A stretch of DNA of 64,000 bases from Nostoc sp. S13. Its GTDB lineage: Bacteria; Cyanobacteriota; Cyanobacteriia; Cyanobacteriales; Nostocaceae. The notes below the pieces were generated by a model. It was not told where the DNA came from, searched no databases, and saw only the letters and a list, made by a program, of their open reading frames with translations. Position 1 is the stretch's first letter. Each line of letters opens with the position of its first letter. The DNA is taken from assembly GCF_029379315.1 (NCBI RefSeq), contig NZ_JAQYWQ010000014.1, positions 542 to 64,541 of the forward strand, in the 5' to 3' direction. Made by a program: the position numbers and the translations under genes. Shown here one piece after another: positions 24,711 to 32,860 of this stretch.

Positions 24711-26705
24711 ATGATTTCTACTCAACTGATAATTTATTGTATAAATCCAGGCTGTAATAGCCCCATTAATCCTATGGAAGATAGTGTTTGTGCCAGTTGC
24801 CAAACTCCTTTAGTTCACCGCTATCTTTGGGCTACTGGCTCATTGTCTGCTCAAATCTCACCAGGCACTAAGGTAGCAGATAGGTATGAGGTAATTAGTC
24901 ACCAGATTTGGCTGGATACTCAACCGGGATTGCCGCCAGATGTACCTGAAGAATTGCCAAAAGAAGTAATTCCTTATCTACTGTTATATCAAGAGCGGTT
25001 GCATTTGCCCCAGGTTTATGGATTTGCTTCTAACTTTGAAAGAGATACAACTGATATCCTCTTATTGGAAAATGTACCGATAGATGAGACAGGAAATATT
25101 TATCCAACTATTGTTGAGGCATGGGAGCAAGCAACGGCAGTACGACAAGTTTATTGGCTGTGGCAAATTCTCCAACTTTGGACACCTTTATCAGAATTGG
25201 GACTTAGCCGCAGTTTATTGTTAGTAAATAACTTGAGAGTCCAAGGTTGGTGTGTGCAACTGTTGGAACTCTATCAAACACCAGCAGATGAGAAGCTAAG
25301 TTTACAAAATTTGGGGCAGTGTTGGCAGTTTTGGGTAACGTCTGCAAAGGCATCAGTAGCCAAAGGGTTACAGAACATAGTCCAGCAGATGTGTGAAACT
25401 GAGGTTGAGTTTGAGGCTATTAATATTCAACTTAATAATTTACTACTAGCATCTGCGGCAGAATTGCCATTAGTCCTGAAAGTGGCAGGCTCTACAGATA
25501 TTGGCCTAGTTATGGCACAAAATGAAGACGCTTGCTACCCCAATGCTTTGAGTAACTTAGATGAACCTTTATTGTCTCACTTGTCGATTGTTTGCGATGG
25601 CATTGGCGGACATGAAGGCGGCGAGGTTGCTAGTAAGTTGGCAGTGCAGTCTATAAAGTTGCAAATTCGCGCTTTACTAACGGAGGTAACAGAACAAGCT
25701 GTAGTTGTACCACCTGGGTTGTTGCAGGAACAATTAGAAGCAAGCTTACGGGTGGTAAATAATCTGATTTGTGCCCGCAATAACGAACAAAAACGCCAAG
25801 GGAAAGAACGCATGGCTACAACTATTGTAATGGCGGTACAAGTTCCCCAACAAGTGCAGACGAGTACTGAGTGGCAATCAAATAATACTCATGAACTTTA
25901 CTTGGCTAATGTTGGCGATAGCCGTGCCTATTGGATTACTCGTAATTATTGTCAGCTACTGACAGTCGATGATGATGTGGCGACACGAGAAGTACGTTTT
26001 GCGAAAAACTTGTATCGAAAGGCACTTCTTAGACCAGATGCTAGTGCCCTAACTCAAGCATTGGGAACAAGAGATGCAGAATCTTTACGTGTCAAGGTTC
26101 AGCGATTCATTCTGGAAGAAGATGGCATCTTGCTACTGTGTTCTGATGGTTTAAGTGATAATAACTGGGTGGAAGAATCTTGGCAGGATTATGCAATACC
26201 CGTGTTAACAGGTCAATTGACAGTTGAAGATGCTGTCCGCAACTGGATTAACTTGGCAAACGAAAAAAATGGGCGTGATAATACGTCTGTTGTTCTCACT
26301 TATTACCGTGTCTCTCCAGAATACTTAGTACCTGTGACTCCGGCTTTGCCAGAAGAGCTTATAGAAGCAGAAATACAAGAAGAAGAAGACAAACAAGAGG
26401 AACCAATTTCCTTTACAGAAAGTTCGCGATCGCTGCTAGATCCAAATCTAAATTTGGATCTAGACTTGGATCTAGATTTGGATCTTTCAGAGGAACCATT
26501 TACAAGTCCAGAAATCCCACCAACCTTAATTACAAAACCTAAGCGGGGTAAACGTTTGGTAATGCTGGGGGGAGTGTTGGCGTTGCTTGCGGGAGGTACA
26601 AGTCTGGGATTATTTGCTTGGTGGCAATTTAATCCTCAAGGATTCCAGCAGATGTGTTGGCAACTTCCCCAAAGAATACAGCAATTATGTCGGCCTGGGA
26701 AATAG
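24711..26705 (+). CDS. PP2C-family Ser/Thr phosphatase with N-terminal zinc ribbon and C-terminal TM
   Basis: CINPGC...CASC, VCDGIGGHEGGEVAS, ANVGDSRAY, LLCSDGLSD and GRDNTS motifs. Confidence 0.92.
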   Translation: MISTQLIIYCINPGCNSPINPMEDSVCASCQTPLVHRYLWATGSLSAQISPGTKVADRYEVISHQIWLDTQPGLPPDVPEELPKEVIPYLLLYQERLHLPQVYGFASNFERDTTDILLLENVPIDETGNIYPTIVEAWEQATAVRQVYWLWQILQLWTPLSELGLSRSLLLVNNLRVQGWCVQLLELYQTPADEKLSLQNLGQCWQFWVTSAKASVAKGLQNIVQQMCETEVEFEAINIQLNNLLLASAAELPLVLKVAGSTDIGLVMAQNEDACYPNALSNLDEPLLSHLSIVCDGIGGHEGGEVASKLAVQSIKLQIRALLTEVTEQAVVVPPGLLQEQLEASLRVVNNLICARNNEQKRQGKERMATTIVMAVQVPQQVQTSTEWQSNNTHELYLANVGDSRAYWITRNYCQLLTVDDDVATREVRFAKNLYRKALLRPDASALTQALGTRDAESLRVKVQRFILEEDGILLLCSDGLSDNNWVEESWQDYAIPVLTGQLTVEDAVRNWINLANEKNGRDNTSVVLTYYRVSPEYLVPVTPALPEELIEAEIQEEEDKQEEPISFTESSRSLLDPNLNLDLDLDLDLDLSEEPFTSPEIPPTLITKPKRGKRLVMLGGVLALLAGGTSLGLFAWWQFNPQGFQQMCWQLPQRIQQLCRPGK

Positions 26706-26790
26706 GGAGTGGGGAGTAGGTGACAGTAATAACTACCGTAGGTTTTTCACCAATGTTTCAACATTAGTTATCTAAGTCATGGCGGGAACA

Positions 26791-27021
26791 GTTTCACAAA
26801 TTATGGGAACGGTTTCACAACTTATGGGAGCAGTTTCACAACTTATGGGAACGGTTCCACAACTTACGGGAGCAGTTTCCCAACTTACGGGAACGGTTCC
26901 ACAACTTACGGGAGCAGCTTCACAACTTATGGGAACGGTTCCACAACTTACGGGAGCAGTTCCACGACTTACGGGAACGGTTCCACAACTTAGGGGAGCA
27001 GCTTCACAACTTATGGGAGCA
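26791..27021. repeat. Tandem array of 11 x 21-bp units with 42-bp higher-order alternation
   Basis: Unit GTTYCACAACTTAYGGGARCR; ends mostly alternate ...GGAACG and ...GGAGCA; no spacers. Confidence 0.9.
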
Positions 27022-27305
27022 GTTTCAGTAGCGATGTTATTTAAGAGAGTTTTTGCATTCACAGTGAGAGTTTAACTGGTGAACTGATACTGTGAAGCGA
27101 TCGCACCAGAGATAACTTTACATCACAATGGCAAAGGCGATCGCTAGCTATTTATTTATGGAATACTGTGTTGATATATTATGGCGATCGCACCACACAT
27201 AACTCTACATCATATCTTGCACCAACATGGGAGCTAGTTAGCAACTTGACTCAGTGAATCTGCGATAAGGTAAGGGTATCACAACCTGCTCTCACCACAG
27301 GAAAG

Positions 27306-28931
27306 ATGAATATTGACCCCGTATCTGTAGTTAATGCTATTAAAGCAGTTGCACCTGCTACTGTTTCCCTTGGTATCCAGCAGGCTCAACGTAACGAATA
27401 TATTATTAAAGTTTTAAAACGTTTAAATCTTGCTCGAATACAGCCTCCCAAAGATTTTGAAGGTGTTTATACTTATGCTTTGGTAGAGTATGGCGTCTTT
27501 CAAGCTGATGATATACTCAATTTTTTTAGAAATAAAGAGATTAAAAAAACTTTTTATAAGGCTTTTGCAGAAAAGGCATTGGCTATTGATAATGAGGAAT
27601 GGAATACATTAAAAGATGAGGCACAACAAGCCAAAATAGACTTAGTTAAAGTTCAGGAATTTCATCAAGTTTTTGTCAGTGTGGCAAAACGCTCTAGAAA
27701 TCCTGGAGAAATTCTAGCTAATGTACAATTTCCAGAACACCTGAATAAATCTACAGAACCTGCAAAACAGTCTCTTTATCCAGATGAGTTTAAGGCGCTA
27801 ATTGAAGAAAAAACTAAGGCATTTTGCGGACGGGTATTTGTATTTAATGAGTTTAATGATTTCCTCAAAAATCATCCCAAAGGTTATTTTACTGTAATTG
27901 GGGATGCGGGGATGGGGAAAAGTGCGATCGCAGCCCAATCTGTATCTAAATACAAAGCTATCTGCTACTTCAATATTCGGGCAGAAGGTCGCAACACACC
28001 AGAGCAATTTTTGCAAAGTAGTCGTCAACAACTGATTAATTGCTATCAGTTACAGAATGCAGAGAATGATAATTTACCTACTTTGCTGACGAAAGTAAAT
28101 GAAAAGCTAGCAACTGGTGAACCCTTGGTAATTGTGGTTGATGCACTTGATGAAGTCGAACAACCAGGGTCAGGAAATCTTTTAGATTTACCCAAAAATT
28201 TGCCAGAGAAGATATATTTTCTGTTAACTAGGCGACGTTATGCCCAAAATGAAAAGCGCTTGTTGACTGAAGAAGTTCCAGAGCAGCAGTTGGATTTAAC
28301 AGCGAATAAGTATGAGGTCTGGAATCGAAAAGATATCAAAGAATACATTAGTACATTTATCAATGATGAGCCAGAGCATGATGGTTTAAAGGCATGGATT
28401 CAAAAACGCAACATTCAGCCGCCATATTTTATTGAGCAGGTAGCACAAAAAAGTGAAAACAATTTTATGTACCTGTACTATGTCTTACCAAGTATTGCTA
28501 GAGGAGATTATCAAGACTTAAGTTTAGAAGAATTACCTGAGAAACTTCAGGGTTATTATGAACAGCATTGGAAGCAGATGGAAATGGATACTCCAGACAA
28601 GCGGAGAAATGCGATTATCCTCTGTGTACTGGTTGAGGTAGGTAAACCGATTTCCTGTAAATCCATTGCCCGCATTACTGGTCGAAATGAATATGATGTT
28701 TTGGAGCTTTTGAATAAGTGGCTGGAATTCTTGAGAAGACAAAAACAAAATCAGGAAGACTACTATTCAATTTATCACCAAAGTTTTGCAGATTTCCTCC
28801 GCAAGCAACCGATTATCAAAAGAGAAAAAAAGAGCAATAATATTGATTGGCAAGAGGTTCAGCGTCTTATTTCCGACTCTAATGACCAATTGTGGGCAAG
28901 GCTCAAACCTGGTGAGGACGAAGATGAATAG
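27306..28931 (+). CDS. STAND/NACHT-like P-loop ATPase with N-terminal helical domain
   Basis: Walker A GDAGMGKS, Walker B VIVVDALDE, FLLTRR, ENNFMY and winged-helix YSIYHQSFADFL. Confidence 0.85.
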   Translation: MNIDPVSVVNAIKAVAPATVSLGIQQAQRNEYIIKVLKRLNLARIQPPKDFEGVYTYALVEYGVFQADDILNFFRNKEIKKTFYKAFAEKALAIDNEEWNTLKDEAQQAKIDLVKVQEFHQVFVSVAKRSRNPGEILANVQFPEHLNKSTEPAKQSLYPDEFKALIEEKTKAFCGRVFVFNEFNDFLKNHPKGYFTVIGDAGMGKSAIAAQSVSKYKAICYFNIRAEGRNTPEQFLQSSRQQLINCYQLQNAENDNLPTLLTKVNEKLATGEPLVIVVDALDEVEQPGSGNLLDLPKNLPEKIYFLLTRRRYAQNEKRLLTEEVPEQQLDLTANKYEVWNRKDIKEYISTFINDEPEHDGLKAWIQKRNIQPPYFIEQVAQKSENNFMYLYYVLPSIARGDYQDLSLEELPEKLQGYYEQHWKQMEMDTPDKRRNAIILCVLVEVGKPISCKSIARITGRNEYDVLELLNKWLEFLRRQKQNQEDYYSIYHQSFADFLRKQPIIKREKKSNNIDWQEVQRLISDSNDQLWARLKPGEDEDE

Positions 28932-31260
28932 TTTTGCTGAAAAATTTGCCCAGTTATCTTTAAGCGACCAGCGAACCATCCTCATTGACCCTCGTGTTAA
29001 AGCAAATCTAGGAAAATGGAAACTGTTTTACAAAAGACTGACTGATTTTGATTTTATCAATGCTAAAGTCAACCATTCTGATTTTGGTGTGCAGTCACTC
29101 ATTGACGATTATGATTTAATTAACGACTTAGAACTATTAAACAAACCAGAATATAATTCAGAGCAAGTTAAAACGCTGAAATTGATTCAATGAGCGTTGC
29201 GACTGTCAGCACATATTTTAGTAAAAGATAAAATGCAACTGGCAGGGCAATTGTGGGGGCGAATGCAGCACTTTGCAGTACCAGAAATTCAAGCAATGCT
29301 GAAATTAGCAAAGCAGCAAGTTTTACCTTGGTTCTGTCCGTTAACATCTAACTTAATTTCCCCCGGTGGAAGTTTACTTCTCACCCTCTCAGGTCATAGC
29401 CTCTACGTAAGTGCAGTAGCCCTCACCCCCGATGGCAAGAAAGTGATTTCTGCTTCAGCTGACAACACACTCAAACTTTGGAATCTGGAAACTGGGGAGG
29501 ATGAGTGGACTTTCCAGGGTCATAGCGGCTCGGTAAATGCAGTAGCCATCACCCCGGATGGCAAGCGGGTAATTTCTGGTTCATCTGATAACACACTCAA
29601 ACTCTGGAATCTAGAAACTGGTAAAGATGAGCGGACTTTCCAGGGTCATAGCGGCTCGGTATTTGCAGTAGCCCTCACCCCGGATGGCAAGCGGATGATT
29701 TCTGCTTCATCTGACAAGACACTCAAACTCTGGAATCTGGAAACTGGGGAGGATGAGCGGACTTTTAAAGGTCATAGCGACCCTGTACTAGCAGTAGCCC
29801 TCACCCCCGATGGCAAGCGGGTGATTTCTGCTTCACATGACAGCACACTCAAACTCTGGAATCTGGAAACTGGTGAGGATAAGCGGACTTTTTATGGTCA
29901 TCGCGACTATGTAAGAGCAGTAGCCATCACCCCCGATGGCAAGCGGGTGATTTCTGCTTCATCTGACAGCACGCTCAAACTCTGGAATCTGGAAACTGGG
30001 GAGGATGAGCGGACTTTTTATGGTCATAGCGGCTCGGTATATGCAGTAGCTCTCACCCCCGATGGTAAGCGGCTGATTTCTACTTCACATGACAGCACAC
30101 TCAAACTCTGGAATCTAGAAACTGGTAAAGATGAGCGGACTTTCCAGGGTCATAGCGGCTCGGTATTTGCAGTAGCTCTCACCCCGGATGGCAAGCGGCT
30201 GATTTCTGCTTCATCTGACAGGACACTCAAACTCTGGAATCTGGAAACTAGGGAGGATGAGCGGATTTTTAATTGTCACAGCGGCTTTGTACTAGCACTA
30301 GCCCTCAGCCCCGATGGCAAGCGGGTGATTTCTGCTTCATTTGACAGCATACTCAAACTGTGGAATCTGGAAACTGGTGAGGATGAGCGGACTTTTTATG
30401 GTCATAGCGGCCCTGTACTAGCACTAGCCCTCACCCCCGATGGCAAGGGGCTGATTTCTGTTTCTCATGACAGGACGCTCAAACTCTGGAATCTGGAAAC
30501 TGGGAAGGATGAGCGGACTTTTTATGGTCATAGCGGCTCGATATATGCACTAGCCCTCACCCCCGATGGCAAGCGGGTGATTTCTGCTTCTTATGACAGG
30601 ACACTCAAACTCTGGAATCTGGAAACTGGTGAGGATGAACGGACTTTTTATGGTCATAGCGGCCGGGTAGATGCACTAGCCCTCACCCCCGATGGCAAGC
30701 GGGTGATTTCTGCTTCTTATGACAGGACACTCAAACTCTGGAATCTGGAAACTGGTGAGGATGAACGGACTTTTTATGGTCATAGCGGCCGGGTAGATGC
30801 ACTAGCCCTCACCCCCGATGGCAAGGGGCTGATTTCTGTTTCTTATGACAGGACACTCAAACTCTGGAATCTGGAAACTGGAGAGGATGAGCGGACTTTT
30901 TATGGTCATAGCGACTCGGTATATGCAGTAGCCCTCACCCCCGATGGCAAGCGGGTGATTTCTACTTCTCATGACAGGACACTCAAACTCTGGAATCTGG
31001 AAACTGGGGAGAATGAGCGGACTTTTTATGGTCATAACGGCTTGGTATATGCAGTAGCCCTCACCCTCGATGGCAAGCGGGTGATTTCTGCTTCAAATGA
31101 CAACACACTCAAACTCTGGAATCTGGAAACTGGGGAAGAAATTGCCACTTTTACAGGAGAAGCTCCATTTTTTTGCTGCGCTGTTGCAGCAGATGGGGTG
31201 ACAATTGTCGCAGGGGAGTCGTCAGGGAGAGTGCATTTTTTGCGGTTGGAGAATGTTTAA
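28924..31260 (+). pseudogene. WD40 repeat protein with APAF-1-like helical N-domain, interrupted by an in-frame TGA at 29191-29193
   Basis: ORFs 28924-29193 and 29197-31260 share a frame and read LKLIQ*ALRLSAHIL. There are 14 near-identical 42-aa WD repeats plus one degenerate repeat. Confidence 0.85.
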
Positions 31261-31265
31261 AAAGT

Positions 31266-32351
31266 ATGAATACTTCACCTCGATCGCCAACGCCAATCAA
31301 TTCACCCTCATACCCAACAGAATTTCAACAAATCATTCTCGAAAAAAGCCAAAACTTTGTTGGTCGTGAATTCGTCTTCACCGCAATATCCAACTTTCTC
31401 CAACGTCATGACCGGGGTTACTTTACCATAATTGGCGCACCCGGTAGCGGCAAAAGTGCCATCCTCGCCAAATACGTCACAGAAAATCCCCACCTTCTCT
31501 ATTACAACGCCCAACTTCCAGACAAAAATCGCGCTGGGGAATTTATTGCTACTATCTGCACGCAAATTGACCCGACATCTCAAGAAACCTCTCTACCTTC
31601 CCTTCTTCAGCAAGTCAGCGACAAGCTAGAATCTCAACAAAAGTTTATCATTGCTATTGATGCCTTGGATGCTGTTAACCGCACCAACCAAACCCCAGGC
31701 TCAAATCTCTTTTATCTTCCCAGATATCTCCCGCGTGGCGTCTATTTCCTTTTTACCCGCCGTCCTTATGTGCGAAAACAATCCGGTTTGTTGATAGAAG
31801 CACCTTCCCAAATTCTCGACTTAGCAGAATACCCACAACAAAACCACGAGGATATCGAAGCATATATTCAACGATATGTCAACAATGACGAAGAACTCAC
31901 AGCACAGCTAATAGCCAAAAGCGAAAACAATTTCATGTATCTCACTCAGATATTACCTGCTATCTCTAAGGAGGTTGACCGACTTACCCCTGATTTAGAG
32001 GCGTATTATCAACAGCATTTGCACAAGATGATTCCCCCTAATTCGCCAACTTTTGAGAGGAAATTGAAATCATTTGTGCTGAGTGTGTTAGTGCAAGTTT
32101 CATCACCTTTATCAGCAGAAGTGATTGCTAGTGCAATTGATGCTGATGAATACGATGTTGAAGAAGTTCTGGAAAATTGGCGTGAGTTTTTAATACTCCA
32201 GGACGGCACTTGCTACCCTTCGGGAACGCTAAGAGCGAACAAGTCGGGAAACCGCAAGGGCGCAGTGCCTCAAATTGATGGAGAAATCCGCTACAGTCTT
32301 TATCATTCCAGCTTCCGCGATTTCTTAAGCAAGCAAGCAAATTTTGCTTAG
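31266..32351 (+). CDS. Second STAND-like ATPase lacking effector and sensor domains
   Basis: FVGREFVF, Walker A GAPGSGKS, Walker B IAIDALD, ENNFMY and YSLYHSSFRDFL; start placed at MNTSPR, 5 nt after the WD40 stop. Confidence 0.85.
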   Translation: MNTSPRSPTPINSPSYPTEFQQIILEKSQNFVGREFVFTAISNFLQRHDRGYFTIIGAPGSGKSAILAKYVTENPHLLYYNAQLPDKNRAGEFIATICTQIDPTSQETSLPSLLQQVSDKLESQQKFIIAIDALDAVNRTNQTPGSNLFYLPRYLPRGVYFLFTRRPYVRKQSGLLIEAPSQILDLAEYPQQNHEDIEAYIQRYVNNDEELTAQLIAKSENNFMYLTQILPAISKEVDRLTPDLEAYYQQHLHKMIPPNSPTFERKLKSFVLSVLVQVSSPLSAEVIASAIDADEYDVEEVLENWREFLILQDGTCYPSGTLRANKSGNRKGAVPQIDGEIRYSLYHSSFRDFLSKQANFA

Positions 32352-32401: not shown

Positions 32402-32788
32402 CTGTTGTTCTCACTTATTACCGTGTCTCTCCAGAATACTTAGTACCTGTGACTCCGGCTTTACCAGAAGAGATTATAGAAGCCGAAATACAAGAAGAAC
32501 AAGAGGAACCAATTTCCTTTACAGTAAAGTTCGCGATCGCTGCTAGATTCAAATCTAGATTTGGATATTTTAGAGGAACCATTTACAAGCCCAGAAATCC
32601 CACCAACCTTAATTACAAAACCTCATCGGGGTAAACGCTTGGTAATGCTGGGGGGAGTGTTGGCGTTGCTTGTGGGGTGTATAAGTCTGGGATTATTTGC
32701 TTGGTGGCAAATTAATCCTCAAGGATTACAGCAGATGTGTCGGCAACTTCCCCAAAGAGTGCAGCAACTTTGTCCGCCACAAAAGTAG
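32402..32788 (+). pseudogene. Frameshifted duplicate of the 3' end of the PP2C gene
   Basis: Closely matches 26287-26705 (ctgttgttctcacttattaccgtgtctctccagaatacttagtacc...), with small deletions and a +1 insertion near 32525. Confidence 0.9.
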
Positions 32789-32860
32789 GGACTAGCGACT
32801 TAAAGAATAGATTATACCGAAATATCATGATGTTGCTCAGAAATTTGTCATATGGGTACT

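What the first reader, a model, noticed from the sequence alone, without database searches (positions are those of the whole stretch)
27306..32351. Split NLR-like system: STAND ATPase, separate WD40 sensor and second minimal STAND ATPase
Bacterial NLR/Avs proteins usually fuse effector, NTPase and repeat sensor in one chain. Here ATPase-1 ends after its winged helix. Its stop overlaps by 8 nt the start of a gene encoding the APAF-1-like helical domain and WD40 propellers, and a second effector-less ATPase follows 5 nt later. No catalytic effector domain is recognisable. A heteromeric, modular immune or signalling receptor is inferred.
Basis: partly seen in the sequence, partly recalled or inferred. 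Interest (0 to 1): 0.8.

Follow-up and report, generated by a model that had tools for sequence, protein, structure and literature searches.

The report
Three-gene split NLR-like receptor operon
This Nostoc locus encodes an immune-receptor-like (NLR-type) machine as three separate proteins: an ATPase switch, a WD40 sensor and a second ATPase that lacks a catalytic residue. The same three-gene operon is kept across filamentous cyanobacteria, although the sensor gene of this copy carries a private stop codon.

Summary
A1 (27306-28931) is an NNH5-NACHT ATPase that ends after its winged helix. W (28924-31260) has a helical linker and 14 WD40 repeats. Its ATG overlaps the A1 stop by 8 nt, and it has an in-frame TGA at 29191-29193. 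A2 (31266-32351) is a bare NACHT module that starts 5 nt after W.

The split is not decay. In 77 of 77 related loci that have W, A1 has its own stop. W lies in frame +1, +2 or 0, with gaps of up to about 280 nt, which excludes recoding. Of 52 loci with at least 6 kb downstream, 51 have W and 46 also have A2. The genome holds a second, intact paralogous trio. Of 125 family representatives, 117 end within 60 aa of the winged helix, and rare fused relatives are collinear with A1+W.

New here: A2 forms one clade. It always lacks the final Glu of the NACHT D[GAS]hDE motif (0/52, against 75/75 in A1) but keeps Walker A. All three genes are under purifying selection.

The TGA is private; six relatives read GGA. 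The NNH5 fold matches no solved structure, so the output step is unknown. Immune function is inferred.

The scan had already found this operon on other DNA (e1-3139739, e1-2695743). I found no published description.

The parts
27306..28931 (+). A1: NNH5-NACHT ATPase, 541 aa. It has an N-terminal helical NNH5 domain (residues 8-133), Walker A GDAGMGKS, Walker B with the NACHT signature VVDALDE, sensor-1 LLTRR, a winged helix with YSIYHQSF, and a conserved C-terminal helix (about residues 515-533). It has no repeat sensor.
   Evidence: ORF and translation; Pfam; motif counts; AlphaFold model with pLDDT 76.8 and STAND/NLR fold matches
27327..27704 (+). NNH5 domain of A1 (NACHT N-terminal helical domain 5). 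It occupies the effector or adaptor position, is all-alpha with about 7 helices, and has no recognisable catalytic motif.
   Evidence: Pfam PF22736, 112 bits. The domain model has pLDDT 78 and pTM 0.76. No PDB fold match (best E 0.7).
28924..31260 (+). W: sensor gene with a helical HD2-like linker of about 155 aa, 14 WD40 repeats and a C-terminal cap. It is interrupted by an in-frame TGA.
   Evidence: Translation; Pfam WD40 x14; APAF1_C sub-threshold; collinear with residues 523-753 of the fused relative P0094
29191..29193 (+). In-frame TGA in W. It aligns with GGA (Gly) in five orthologues and with GGT (Gly) in the in-genome paralogue. A TTG that could serve as a restart codon lies 3 nt downstream, at 29197.
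   Evidence: Sequence; DNA alignment; ORF list.
29392..31155 (+). Array of 14 homogenised 126-nt (42-aa) WD40 units, 82-90% identical at the DNA level. Amino-acid variation is concentrated at unit positions 5, 7, 23, 25 and 42.
   Evidence: the repeat finder; per-position variability
31266..32351 (+). A2: bare NACHT-type module of 361 aa, with no N-terminal domain and no sensor. Walker A is GAPGSGKS. Walker B is IDALDA, so the final Glu of D[GAS]hDE is missing. Sensor-1 LFTRR and the winged-helix motif YSLYHSSF are kept.
   Evidence: Translation; BLASTP against A1; Pfam; motif survey; tree
26287..26715 (+). Left copy of a direct repeat: the 3' end of the intact PP2C phosphatase gene (24711..26705). 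It forms the left border of the roughly 6.1-kb island that carries the trio.
   Evidence: the repeat finder D7-D10; Pfam and NCBIfam PP2C
32402..32798 (+). Right copy of the direct repeat (86-95% identical): a relic duplicate of the PP2C 3' end, forming the right border of the island.
   Evidence: the repeat finder. A second copy was seen in only a few genomes of the genus.

Best explanation
The locus is one copy of an ancient, conserved three-gene operon of filamentous cyanobacteria. The operon encodes an NLR-like (NACHT-clade STAND) receptor as three polypeptides.

Shown:
- A1 is the nucleotide switch and carries a non-catalytic helical N-terminal domain (NNH5).
- W carries the remainder of the post-winged-helix helical arm plus a double-propeller-sized array of 14 WD40 repeats. 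Variation between the repeats sits at a few positions.
- A2 is an old paralogue of the A1 NTPase module. It has co-diverged with A1, keeps its P-loop, and has lost the last acidic residue of the NACHT Walker-B signature everywhere.
- All three genes are under purifying selection and are inherited together.

Inferred:
- W docks in trans on the winged helix and C-terminal helix of A1, as the same segments do in cis in rare fused relatives, and holds A1 inactive.
- A ligand, probably a foreign or damage-associated protein, binds the variable top face of the propellers. This releases nucleotide exchange and oligomerisation of A1, which clusters NNH5 as the output.
- A2 binds nucleotide but hydrolyses it poorly. 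It acts as a co-assembling regulator (helper, cap or brake) of A1.

In this strain the W gene carries a private nonsense codon, so this copy may be disabled or further split. An intact paralogous trio exists elsewhere in the genome.
For: Anatomy is confirmed.

Separate genes by design:
- A1 has its own stop in 77/77 loci with W.
- W is in frame +1 (51 loci), +2 (15) or 0 (11), with intergenic gaps of up to about 280 nt.

Co-occurrence:
- 51/52 loci have W and 46/52 have W plus A2.
- The trio recurs in three paralogous lineages within the genus and twice in this genome.

Family-wide:
- 117/125 representatives at the 50% cluster level end within 60 aa of the winged-helix motif.
- Distant relatives carry Pkinase, HEPN_Swt1 or EAD4 N-termini and keep the same ATPase|W split. 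This marks the N-terminus as the variable output position.
- The fused relative P0094 is collinear: A1 162-509 aligns with its residues 159-515, and W 1-230 with its residues 523-753.

A2:
- The D[GA]LDE signature is present in 75/75 A1 and 0/52 A2, while Walker A is kept.
- A2 forms a single clade with support 1.0.
- The mirror-tree correlation between A1 and A2 is r = 0.74, reached by 0/999 permutations.

Selection and fold:
- dN/dS is 0.20-0.46 for all three genes.
- WD40 variation is concentrated at unit positions 5, 7, 23, 25 and 42.
- The A1 model matches NLR resistosomes, Apaf-1 and CED-4.

The trio sits on a small accessory island with patchy distribution in the genus.
Against: - No experiment or complex prediction was possible, so physical association of A1, W and A2 is inferred from operon conservation and from collinearity with fused forms only.
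- No catalytic effector is present, and the NNH5 fold matches nothing solved, so the output step is unknown.
- No curated defence model fits; the Avs1b hits are far below their cut-offs.
- No phage-defence data exist for this family in the literature searched.
- The window's W has a stop codon, so this copy may not work.
- The mirror-tree signal is expected for any linked genes, so it shows co-inheritance and not interaction.
- Loss of the Walker-B Glu predicts impaired hydrolysis but does not prove it.
Confidence: 0.7

Rival explanations
1. The locus in this strain is a decaying, non-functional copy. The nonsense codon in W has inactivated the sensor, and any function is carried by the intact paralogous trio on another contig.
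For: TGA at 29191-29193 aligns with a Gly codon in all six compared relatives. Decayed trios exist in other genomes, for example L029, where W and A2 are both fragmented. A second trio with an open W is present in this genome.
Against: After the TGA the frame stays open for 688 codons with 14 regular repeats. A1 and A2 are intact. So the change is very recent, or it is a sequencing or assembly error in a 238-contig assembly. A TTG 3 nt after the stop could allow restart. This rival concerns only this copy, not the nature of the system.
Confidence: 0.4
2. The trio is a housekeeping or developmental signalling switch of multicellular cyanobacteria, for example for stress-, differentiation- or cell-death control, and not an anti-invader immune receptor.
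For: No catalytic effector or known defence domain is present. The operon is old and widely kept in filamentous cyanobacteria. It lies next to a PP2C phosphatase in several genomes.
Against: Distribution within the genus is patchy, there are several paralogous copies per genome, and this copy sits on a small island bounded by a duplication. The PP2C neighbour is not kept in G006 or in the paralogous loci. The WD40 repeats are homogenised, variable at a few positions, and differ in number between orthologues. Relatives carry HEPN, kinase, TIR and EAD4 domains in place of NNH5. All of this is typical of conflict systems.
Confidence: 0.25
3. A2 is an unrelated passenger: a sensor-less NTPase that happens to be linked and works independently of A1 and W.
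For: A2 is missing from 5 of 51 loci that have W and from the four distant split relatives examined. In one large lineage an antisense Uma2 gene separates it from W.
Against: A2 lies downstream of W in 46/52 loci across several orders, often 2-12 nt from the W stop or overlapping it. It has a single origin and has co-diverged with A1. It is under purifying selection. Its Walker-B change is specific and universal.
Confidence: 0.1
4. A1 and W are made as one fused NLR by programmed frameshifting or readthrough, so the split is only apparent.
For: The two genes overlap by 8 nt here. W is in frame +1 in 51 of 77 loci.
Against: Frames +1, +2 and 0 all occur. In the frame-0 loci a stop still separates the genes. 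Gaps of 84-280 nt separate the genes in many lineages, and W keeps its own ATG.
Confidence: 0.03

Closest known systems
Single-chain bacterial NACHT-WD40 NLR-related proteins (bNACHT; Kibby et al., bioRxiv 10.1101/2022.07.19.500537), including fused relatives of this family such as P0094 (1226 aa)
   Same: Same NACHT signature (D[GAS]hDE), winged helix, post-WHD helical linker and WD40 propellers in the same order. The N-terminal position is variable. NNH domains were named in that work.
   Different: Here the chain is cut after the winged helix in essentially all members, so the sensor is a separate gene. A second, motif-degenerate NACHT paralogue is part of the operon. [quoted passage not shown]
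Apaf-1 / Dark / CED-4 apoptosome proteins
   Same: The domain order NOD-WHD-helical arm-double WD40 propeller is shared. These are the best fold matches of the A1 model, and the W linker gives a weak APAF1_C hit. CED-4 is a natural NOD protein without its own sensor.
   Different: The NTPase here is of NACHT type, not NB-ARC. The N-terminus is NNH5, not CARD. The sensor is encoded in trans, and there is an extra paralogous ATPase.
Paired or sensor-helper NLRs (NAIP-NLRC4 in animals; RGA5/RGA4, RRS1/RPS4 and NRC networks in plants). This comparison rests on my own knowledge.
   Same: Two paralogous NOD proteins are genetically coupled, and one has degenerate nucleotide-handling motifs and a regulatory role.
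   Different: In those pairs each partner has its own repeat domain. Here one sensor gene serves the operon and A2 has neither sensor nor output domain. Hetero-oligomerisation was not tested here.
Antiviral STAND (Avs) proteins
   Same: Same STAND superfamily and the same tripartite logic of output, NTPase and sensor.
   Different: Avs proteins are single chains, mostly with TPR-like sensors and catalytic effectors. Avs1b models score 21.8-35.7 bits against a curated cut-off of 1500.
Fungal HET-E / NWD-type NLR WD40 repeats. This comparison rests on my own knowledge.
   Same: Highly homogenised tandem WD40 units with variation focused on a few positions, and variation in repeat number between alleles or orthologues.
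   Different: The fungal proteins are single chains. No allorecognition role is known here.

Membership tests
NACHT clade of STAND NTPases | Walker A GxxxxGK[ST] | tested here: met
   A1 has GDAGMGKS and A2 has GAPGSGKS.
NACHT clade of STAND NTPases | Walker B followed by the D[GAS]hDE signature, as defined in Kibby et al. | tested here: met
   A1 has VVDALDE, and 75/75 A1 homologues have D[GA]LDE. For A2 the feature is NOT met: DALDA here, and 0/52 A2 homologues keep the final Glu.
NACHT clade of STAND NTPases | Winged-helix domain C-terminal to the AAA+ core | tested here: met
   The model shows helices and a beta hairpin at residues 451-509. It has STAND fold matches (Apaf-1, CED-4, plant NLRs) at E 7e-9 to 1e-6.
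NACHT clade of STAND NTPases | Curated HMM score above the gathering threshold | tested here: inconclusive
   PF05729 NACHT scores 21.5 bits against a cut-off of 26.7 for A1 and 19.2 bits for A2. The NACHT-type model NPHP3_N scores 36.9 bits against 24.8 for A1. Public annotation of homologues reads 'NACHT domain protein'.
Canonical NLR (output, NOD and repeat sensor in one polypeptide) | NTPase and repeat sensor in the same chain | tested here: not met
   A1 has its own stop in 77/77 loci, and frames and gaps vary.
Apaf-1-like (AP-ATPase with HD2 and WD40) | APAF1_C (HD2) helical domain preceding the WD40 propellers | tested here: inconclusive
   PF17908 gives E 7e-4 and 19.9 bits against a cut-off of 22.8 on W residues 33-105.
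Apaf-1-like (AP-ATPase with HD2 and WD40) | NB-ARC type NTPase | tested here: not met
   A1 carries the NACHT signature. No NB-ARC hit was listed for A1.
Avs (antiviral STAND) families in PADLOC / NCBIfam | Match to a curated Avs model at its cut-off | tested here: not met
   Avs1b scores 35.7 bits (PADLOC) and 21.8 bits against a cut-off of 1500 (NCBIfam).
Sensor-helper / paired NLR systems | Physical hetero-oligomer of two NOD paralogues | not testable with these tools
   Only co-inheritance was shown. No multimer prediction tool was available.
Anti-phage defence system | Protection against phage, or infection-triggered toxicity | not testable with these tools
   No experimental data were found in the literature searched.

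The most novel reading that the evidence does not exclude
A natural three-protein NLR. The WD40 sensor completes the helical arm of an active NACHT switch in trans, as a split-domain complementation. A hydrolysis-dead NACHT paralogue co-assembles with the switch as an obligatory helper or brake. This would be a bacterial counterpart of eukaryotic sensor/helper NLR pairs, and its output would be an undescribed helical cell-death or adaptor domain (NNH5).
Probability: 0.3. Interest if true: 0.8.

Novelty: new variant of a known kind. Interest (0 to 1): 0.6.

Why it matters
NLR and STAND immune receptors are usually studied as single chains, which makes it hard to separate sensing, switching and output. 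Here nature has cut the receptor at a fixed point and kept it that way across hundreds of cyanobacterial lineages. It has also added a paralogous ATPase with a specific, universal change in the hydrolysis motif.

This offers a genetically separable system for three questions:
- how a repeat sensor controls a NOD module in trans;
- what a catalytically impaired NOD partner contributes, a question also open for plant and animal paired NLRs;
- what the NNH5 domain does.

There is also a practical point. Censuses of bacterial NLRs that require the NTPase and the repeats in one protein will miss this large family.

Tried and rejected
- Gene decay as the cause of the split: rejected.
- Programmed frameshift fusion: rejected, because frames vary and intergenic gaps occur.
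- TGA as selenocysteine or an alternative genetic code: rejected, because the codon aligns with Gly in all six relatives and TGA ends other genes here.
- NNH5 as a coiled-coil, HeLo or Death-like fold. The whole-A1 fold search put plant CC-NLR resistosomes on top. The isolated NNH5 model, however, has no PDB match (best E 0.7, TM 0.23), so no fold assignment is made.
- Known defence systems: PADLOC and NCBIfam give only sub-threshold Avs1b and STAND_TPR hits.
- A solved close relative of A2: none found.
- The PP2C phosphatase as a fourth component: not kept in G006 or in the paralogous loci.
- An 'empty site' for the island: the two flanks are far apart in most genomes of the genus, so no simple empty site exists.
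- Promoter and terminator scan: fewer sites than in shuffled sequence, so uninformative.
- One literature search ('split NLR') returned only irrelevant papers.
- 'Npun2340/2341' is named as a STAND family in PMC8195603, but the original paper is not in the library, so I could not test whether it is this family.


Full report
**1. Observation**

The window is part of a Nostoc genome: G000 contig 65, in a 7.23-Mb assembly of 238 contigs. A1 is 98% identical to an NCBI 'AAA family ATPase [Nostoc sp.]'.

- A1 runs from 27306 to 28931 (541 aa).
- W starts at the ATG at 28924, so its start overlaps the A1 stop by 8 nt (ATGAATAG). W reads in frame +1 relative to A1 and ends at 31260.
- An in-frame TGA lies at 29191-29193 in W. 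Behind it the frame stays open for 688 codons.
- A2 starts at the ATG at 31266, 5 nt after the W stop, and ends at 32351 (361 aa).

Pfam results are as follows.
- A1 has an N-terminal NNH5 domain ('NACHT N-terminal helical domain 5', residues 8-133, 112 bits). This is followed by NACHT-type P-loop matches: NPHP3_N above its cut-off, and NACHT just below.
- W has 14 WD40 repeats.
- The first 150 residues of W give a sub-threshold APAF1_C (Apaf-1 HD2) match: E 7e-4, 19.9 bits against a cut-off of 22.8.
- A2 is a bare NTPase plus winged-helix module, 35% identical to A1 residues 148-501.

**2. The split is the native state, not decay**

Within this genome there is a second, paralogous trio on contig 73. 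It has A1' (51% identical), an uninterrupted W', and A2'.

In 41 related genomes, matches to A1 always lie in open frames of about 515-570 aa. An A2-type match usually follows 2-4 kb downstream. Thirteen loci that I cut out show A1, W and A2 in the same order in three paralogous lineages of the genus. Four more distant relatives from other families of the order show the same ATPase|W split.

A scan of GTDB species genomes returned 80 further loci. They come from Nostoc, Scytonema, Calothrix, Fischerella, Rivularia, Tolypothrix, Chroococcidiopsis, Coleofasciculus, Trichodesmium, Okeania, Potamolinea and others.
- Of the 52 loci with at least 6 kb downstream, 51 have the W linker directly after A1, and 46 also have A2.
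- In all 77 loci with W, A1 ends at its own stop.
- W lies in frame +1 in 51 loci, +2 in 15 and 0 in 11. Arrangements range from short overlaps to gaps of 84-280 nt.

This variety of junctions rules out a conserved recoding signal that would fuse the two proteins.

An exhaustive phmmer search of 1.84 billion representatives found 3,553 relatives, 701 of them below 1e-30. Of the 125 top representatives with a recognisable winged-helix motif, 117 end within 60 residues of it. Only 7 continue for more than 120 residues.

Some of those few continue into a W-like linker plus WD40 repeats (P0094, P0098, P0114, P0148). Others continue into other modules such as LRR or CHAT. The fused protein P0094 is collinear with the split pair. 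A1 162-509 matches its residues 159-515. W 1-230 matches its residues 523-753 at E 2e-33. The cut therefore falls just after the winged helix, ahead of the conserved helical linker.

**3. The N-terminus is the variable output position**

Distant split relatives carry a protein kinase, a Swt1-like HEPN RNase, EAD4 or a hydrophobic helical domain in place of NNH5. One related representative, P0126, has a fused C-terminal extension and an N-terminal region that I read as TIR-like without a domain search. This is the pattern of NLR-type conflict systems described by Kaur et al. (PMC7159879, PMC8195603) and Kibby et al. (bioRxiv 10.1101/2022.07.19.500537), read.

NNH5 itself is an all-alpha domain of about seven helices; the model has pLDDT 78 and pTM 0.76. 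It has no match among solved structures (best E 0.7). The whole-A1 model (pLDDT 76.8) matches plant CC-NLR resistosomes, Apaf-1 and CED-4 through its NOD module. However, A1 is not effector-less in architecture.

**4. A2 is a specific, ancient, motif-degenerate partner**

In a tree of 137 NTPase modules, the 52 A2 sequences form one clade (support 1.0), apart from the 75 A1 sequences and from the fused and distant relatives. A1 and A2 distances from the same loci correlate at r = 0.74, a value reached by 0 of 999 permutations. This shows long co-inheritance; it does not by itself show interaction.

Every A1 carries the NACHT signature D[GA]LDE (75/75). No A2 does (0/52): the variants are DALDA, DGLNC, DGLDR, DGCDR, DGLNF and others. 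A2 keeps Walker A (mostly GAPGSGKS), the first Walker-B Asp, the sensor-1 'TRR' and the winged-helix 'YHxSF' motif.

By the definition quoted in Kibby et al., A2 fails the second acidic position of the NACHT motif. I infer that it binds nucleotide but hydrolyses it poorly. A2 also lacks the roughly 40-residue conserved C-terminal helix of A1 (V518 and I522 are invariant). That helix is the likely docking site for W.

dN/dS against orthologues is 0.23-0.28 for A1, 0.20-0.42 for the W linker and 0.26-0.46 for A2. All three genes are therefore maintained by selection.

**5. W looks like a diversifying sensor**

The 14 repeat units of 126 nt are 82-90% identical to each other at the DNA level. Amino-acid differences concentrate at unit positions 5, 7, 23, 25 and 42.

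Mapping the unit on the canonical WD40 blade places these positions in the d-a loop and start of strand a, the b-c turn, and the end of strand d. That is the top face, which usually binds ligands. This mapping rests on my own knowledge of WD40 structure. W length varies widely between orthologues, as expected for repeat gain and loss, although short-read assemblies can collapse such arrays.

**6. State of this copy**

The TGA aligns with GGA (Gly) in five orthologues and with GGT in the in-genome paralogue. It is a private single-base difference. Because everything downstream is intact, it is either very recent or an assembly error. A TTG lies 3 nt after the stop, so restart is conceivable but unsupported.

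**7. Context**

The trio sits in an island of about 6.1 kb bounded by a direct duplication of the 3' end of a PP2C phosphatase gene. The copies are 26287-26715 and 32402-32798, 86-95% identical.
- The PP2C gene is present in 61/61 genomes of the genus.
- A substantial second copy of its 3' end was seen in only a few of them (G000, G066, G022, plus fragments in others). The two island flanks are usually far apart.
- G006 has the orthologous trio without PP2C.

The trio is thus accessory and has moved.

**8. Mechanism: what is shown and what is inferred**

Shown: three separate, co-inherited, selected genes; collinearity with fused NLR-like relatives; a variable N-terminal position; variation concentrated at a few repeat positions; and a universal Walker-B change in A2.

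Inferred: W binds A1 in trans and keeps it off. Ligand binding to the propellers allows nucleotide exchange and oligomerisation. NNH5 clustering is the output. A2 co-assembles as a regulator.

My confidence is about 0.85 for the architecture, about 0.6 for a conflict or immune role, and about 0.4 for the specific roles assigned to A2 and NNH5.

**9. Novelty**

I found no description of this operon in the papers searched. Kibby et al. say that their tested bNACHT genes were only rarely in operons, and that those operons were poorly conserved. A 2026 STAND survey mentions 'split proteins' only in a methods line.

Earlier agents of this scan reported the same three-gene operon on other genomes (e1-3139739, e1-2695743). 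My independent tests agree with them. The systematic A2 motif and tree analysis and the junction statistics are computed afresh here. All the domains are known; the fixed three-gene architecture and the degenerate partner are what is new. I therefore rate it a new variant of a known kind.

Noticed in passing
L005:8437-9012 (G000 contig 73, minus strand), and about 25 of the loci L037-L116: An intact Uma2-family (PF05685, PD-(D/E)XK 'putative restriction endonuclease') gene lies antisense between W and A2 in about 20 loci of the sister trio lineage. These include Nostoc, Calothrix, Fischerella, Tolypothrix and Potamolinea. In about 5 other loci it lies just after A2. It is 65-95% identical across genera and is absent from the window's island. 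It could be a fourth component or an old passenger.
   Followed up: partly
window 26287-26715 and 32402-32798: A direct duplication (86-95% identical, about 430 bp) of the 3' end of the PP2C phosphatase gene brackets the trio. A substantial second copy occurs in only a few genomes of the genus (G000, G066, G022). No integrase lies inside the island.
   Followed up: partly
window 26741-27069: About 15 tandem copies of a 21-nt unit lie between the PP2C stop and A1. The array is open on both strands (ORFs 26779..27075 on + and 26772..27062 on -), so it would give heptapeptide repeats if translated. Its function is unknown.
   Followed up: no
G012:C1:3012231, G010:C13:243037, G023:C63:13172, G007:C161:1810, G017:C175:7288, G022:C25:46369: In many genomes of the genus, a gene whose product starts with an NNH5 domain lies about 3.5 kb from the PP2C gene. 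Its open frame is mostly 1486-1493 aa, and 738-855 aa in two of the genomes. I did not run a domain search on the rest of the protein. The window's genome has no such gene there: the own-genome search found only the two trios.
   Followed up: no
L005:7328-8422 (G000 contig 73): The paralogous W' has only about 5 near-identical WD40 units, against 14 in the window. This may be a repeat array collapsed by short-read assembly and not a real 5-blade protein.
   Followed up: no
window 24711-26705: The 664-aa PP2C phosphatase carries an N-terminal '4-Cys prefix' domain (NF045510), a model named for kinases. It also has a C-terminal hydrophobic segment.
   Followed up: no
L033 (G037:C70), L034 (G028), L035 (G034), L036 (G038): Distant relatives of A1 have Pkinase, HEPN_Swt1, EAD4 or a glycine-rich hydrophobic N-terminal domain. 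They keep the same cut between ATPase and W-type sensor gene, but no A2-type gene was seen within the flanks.
   Followed up: partly
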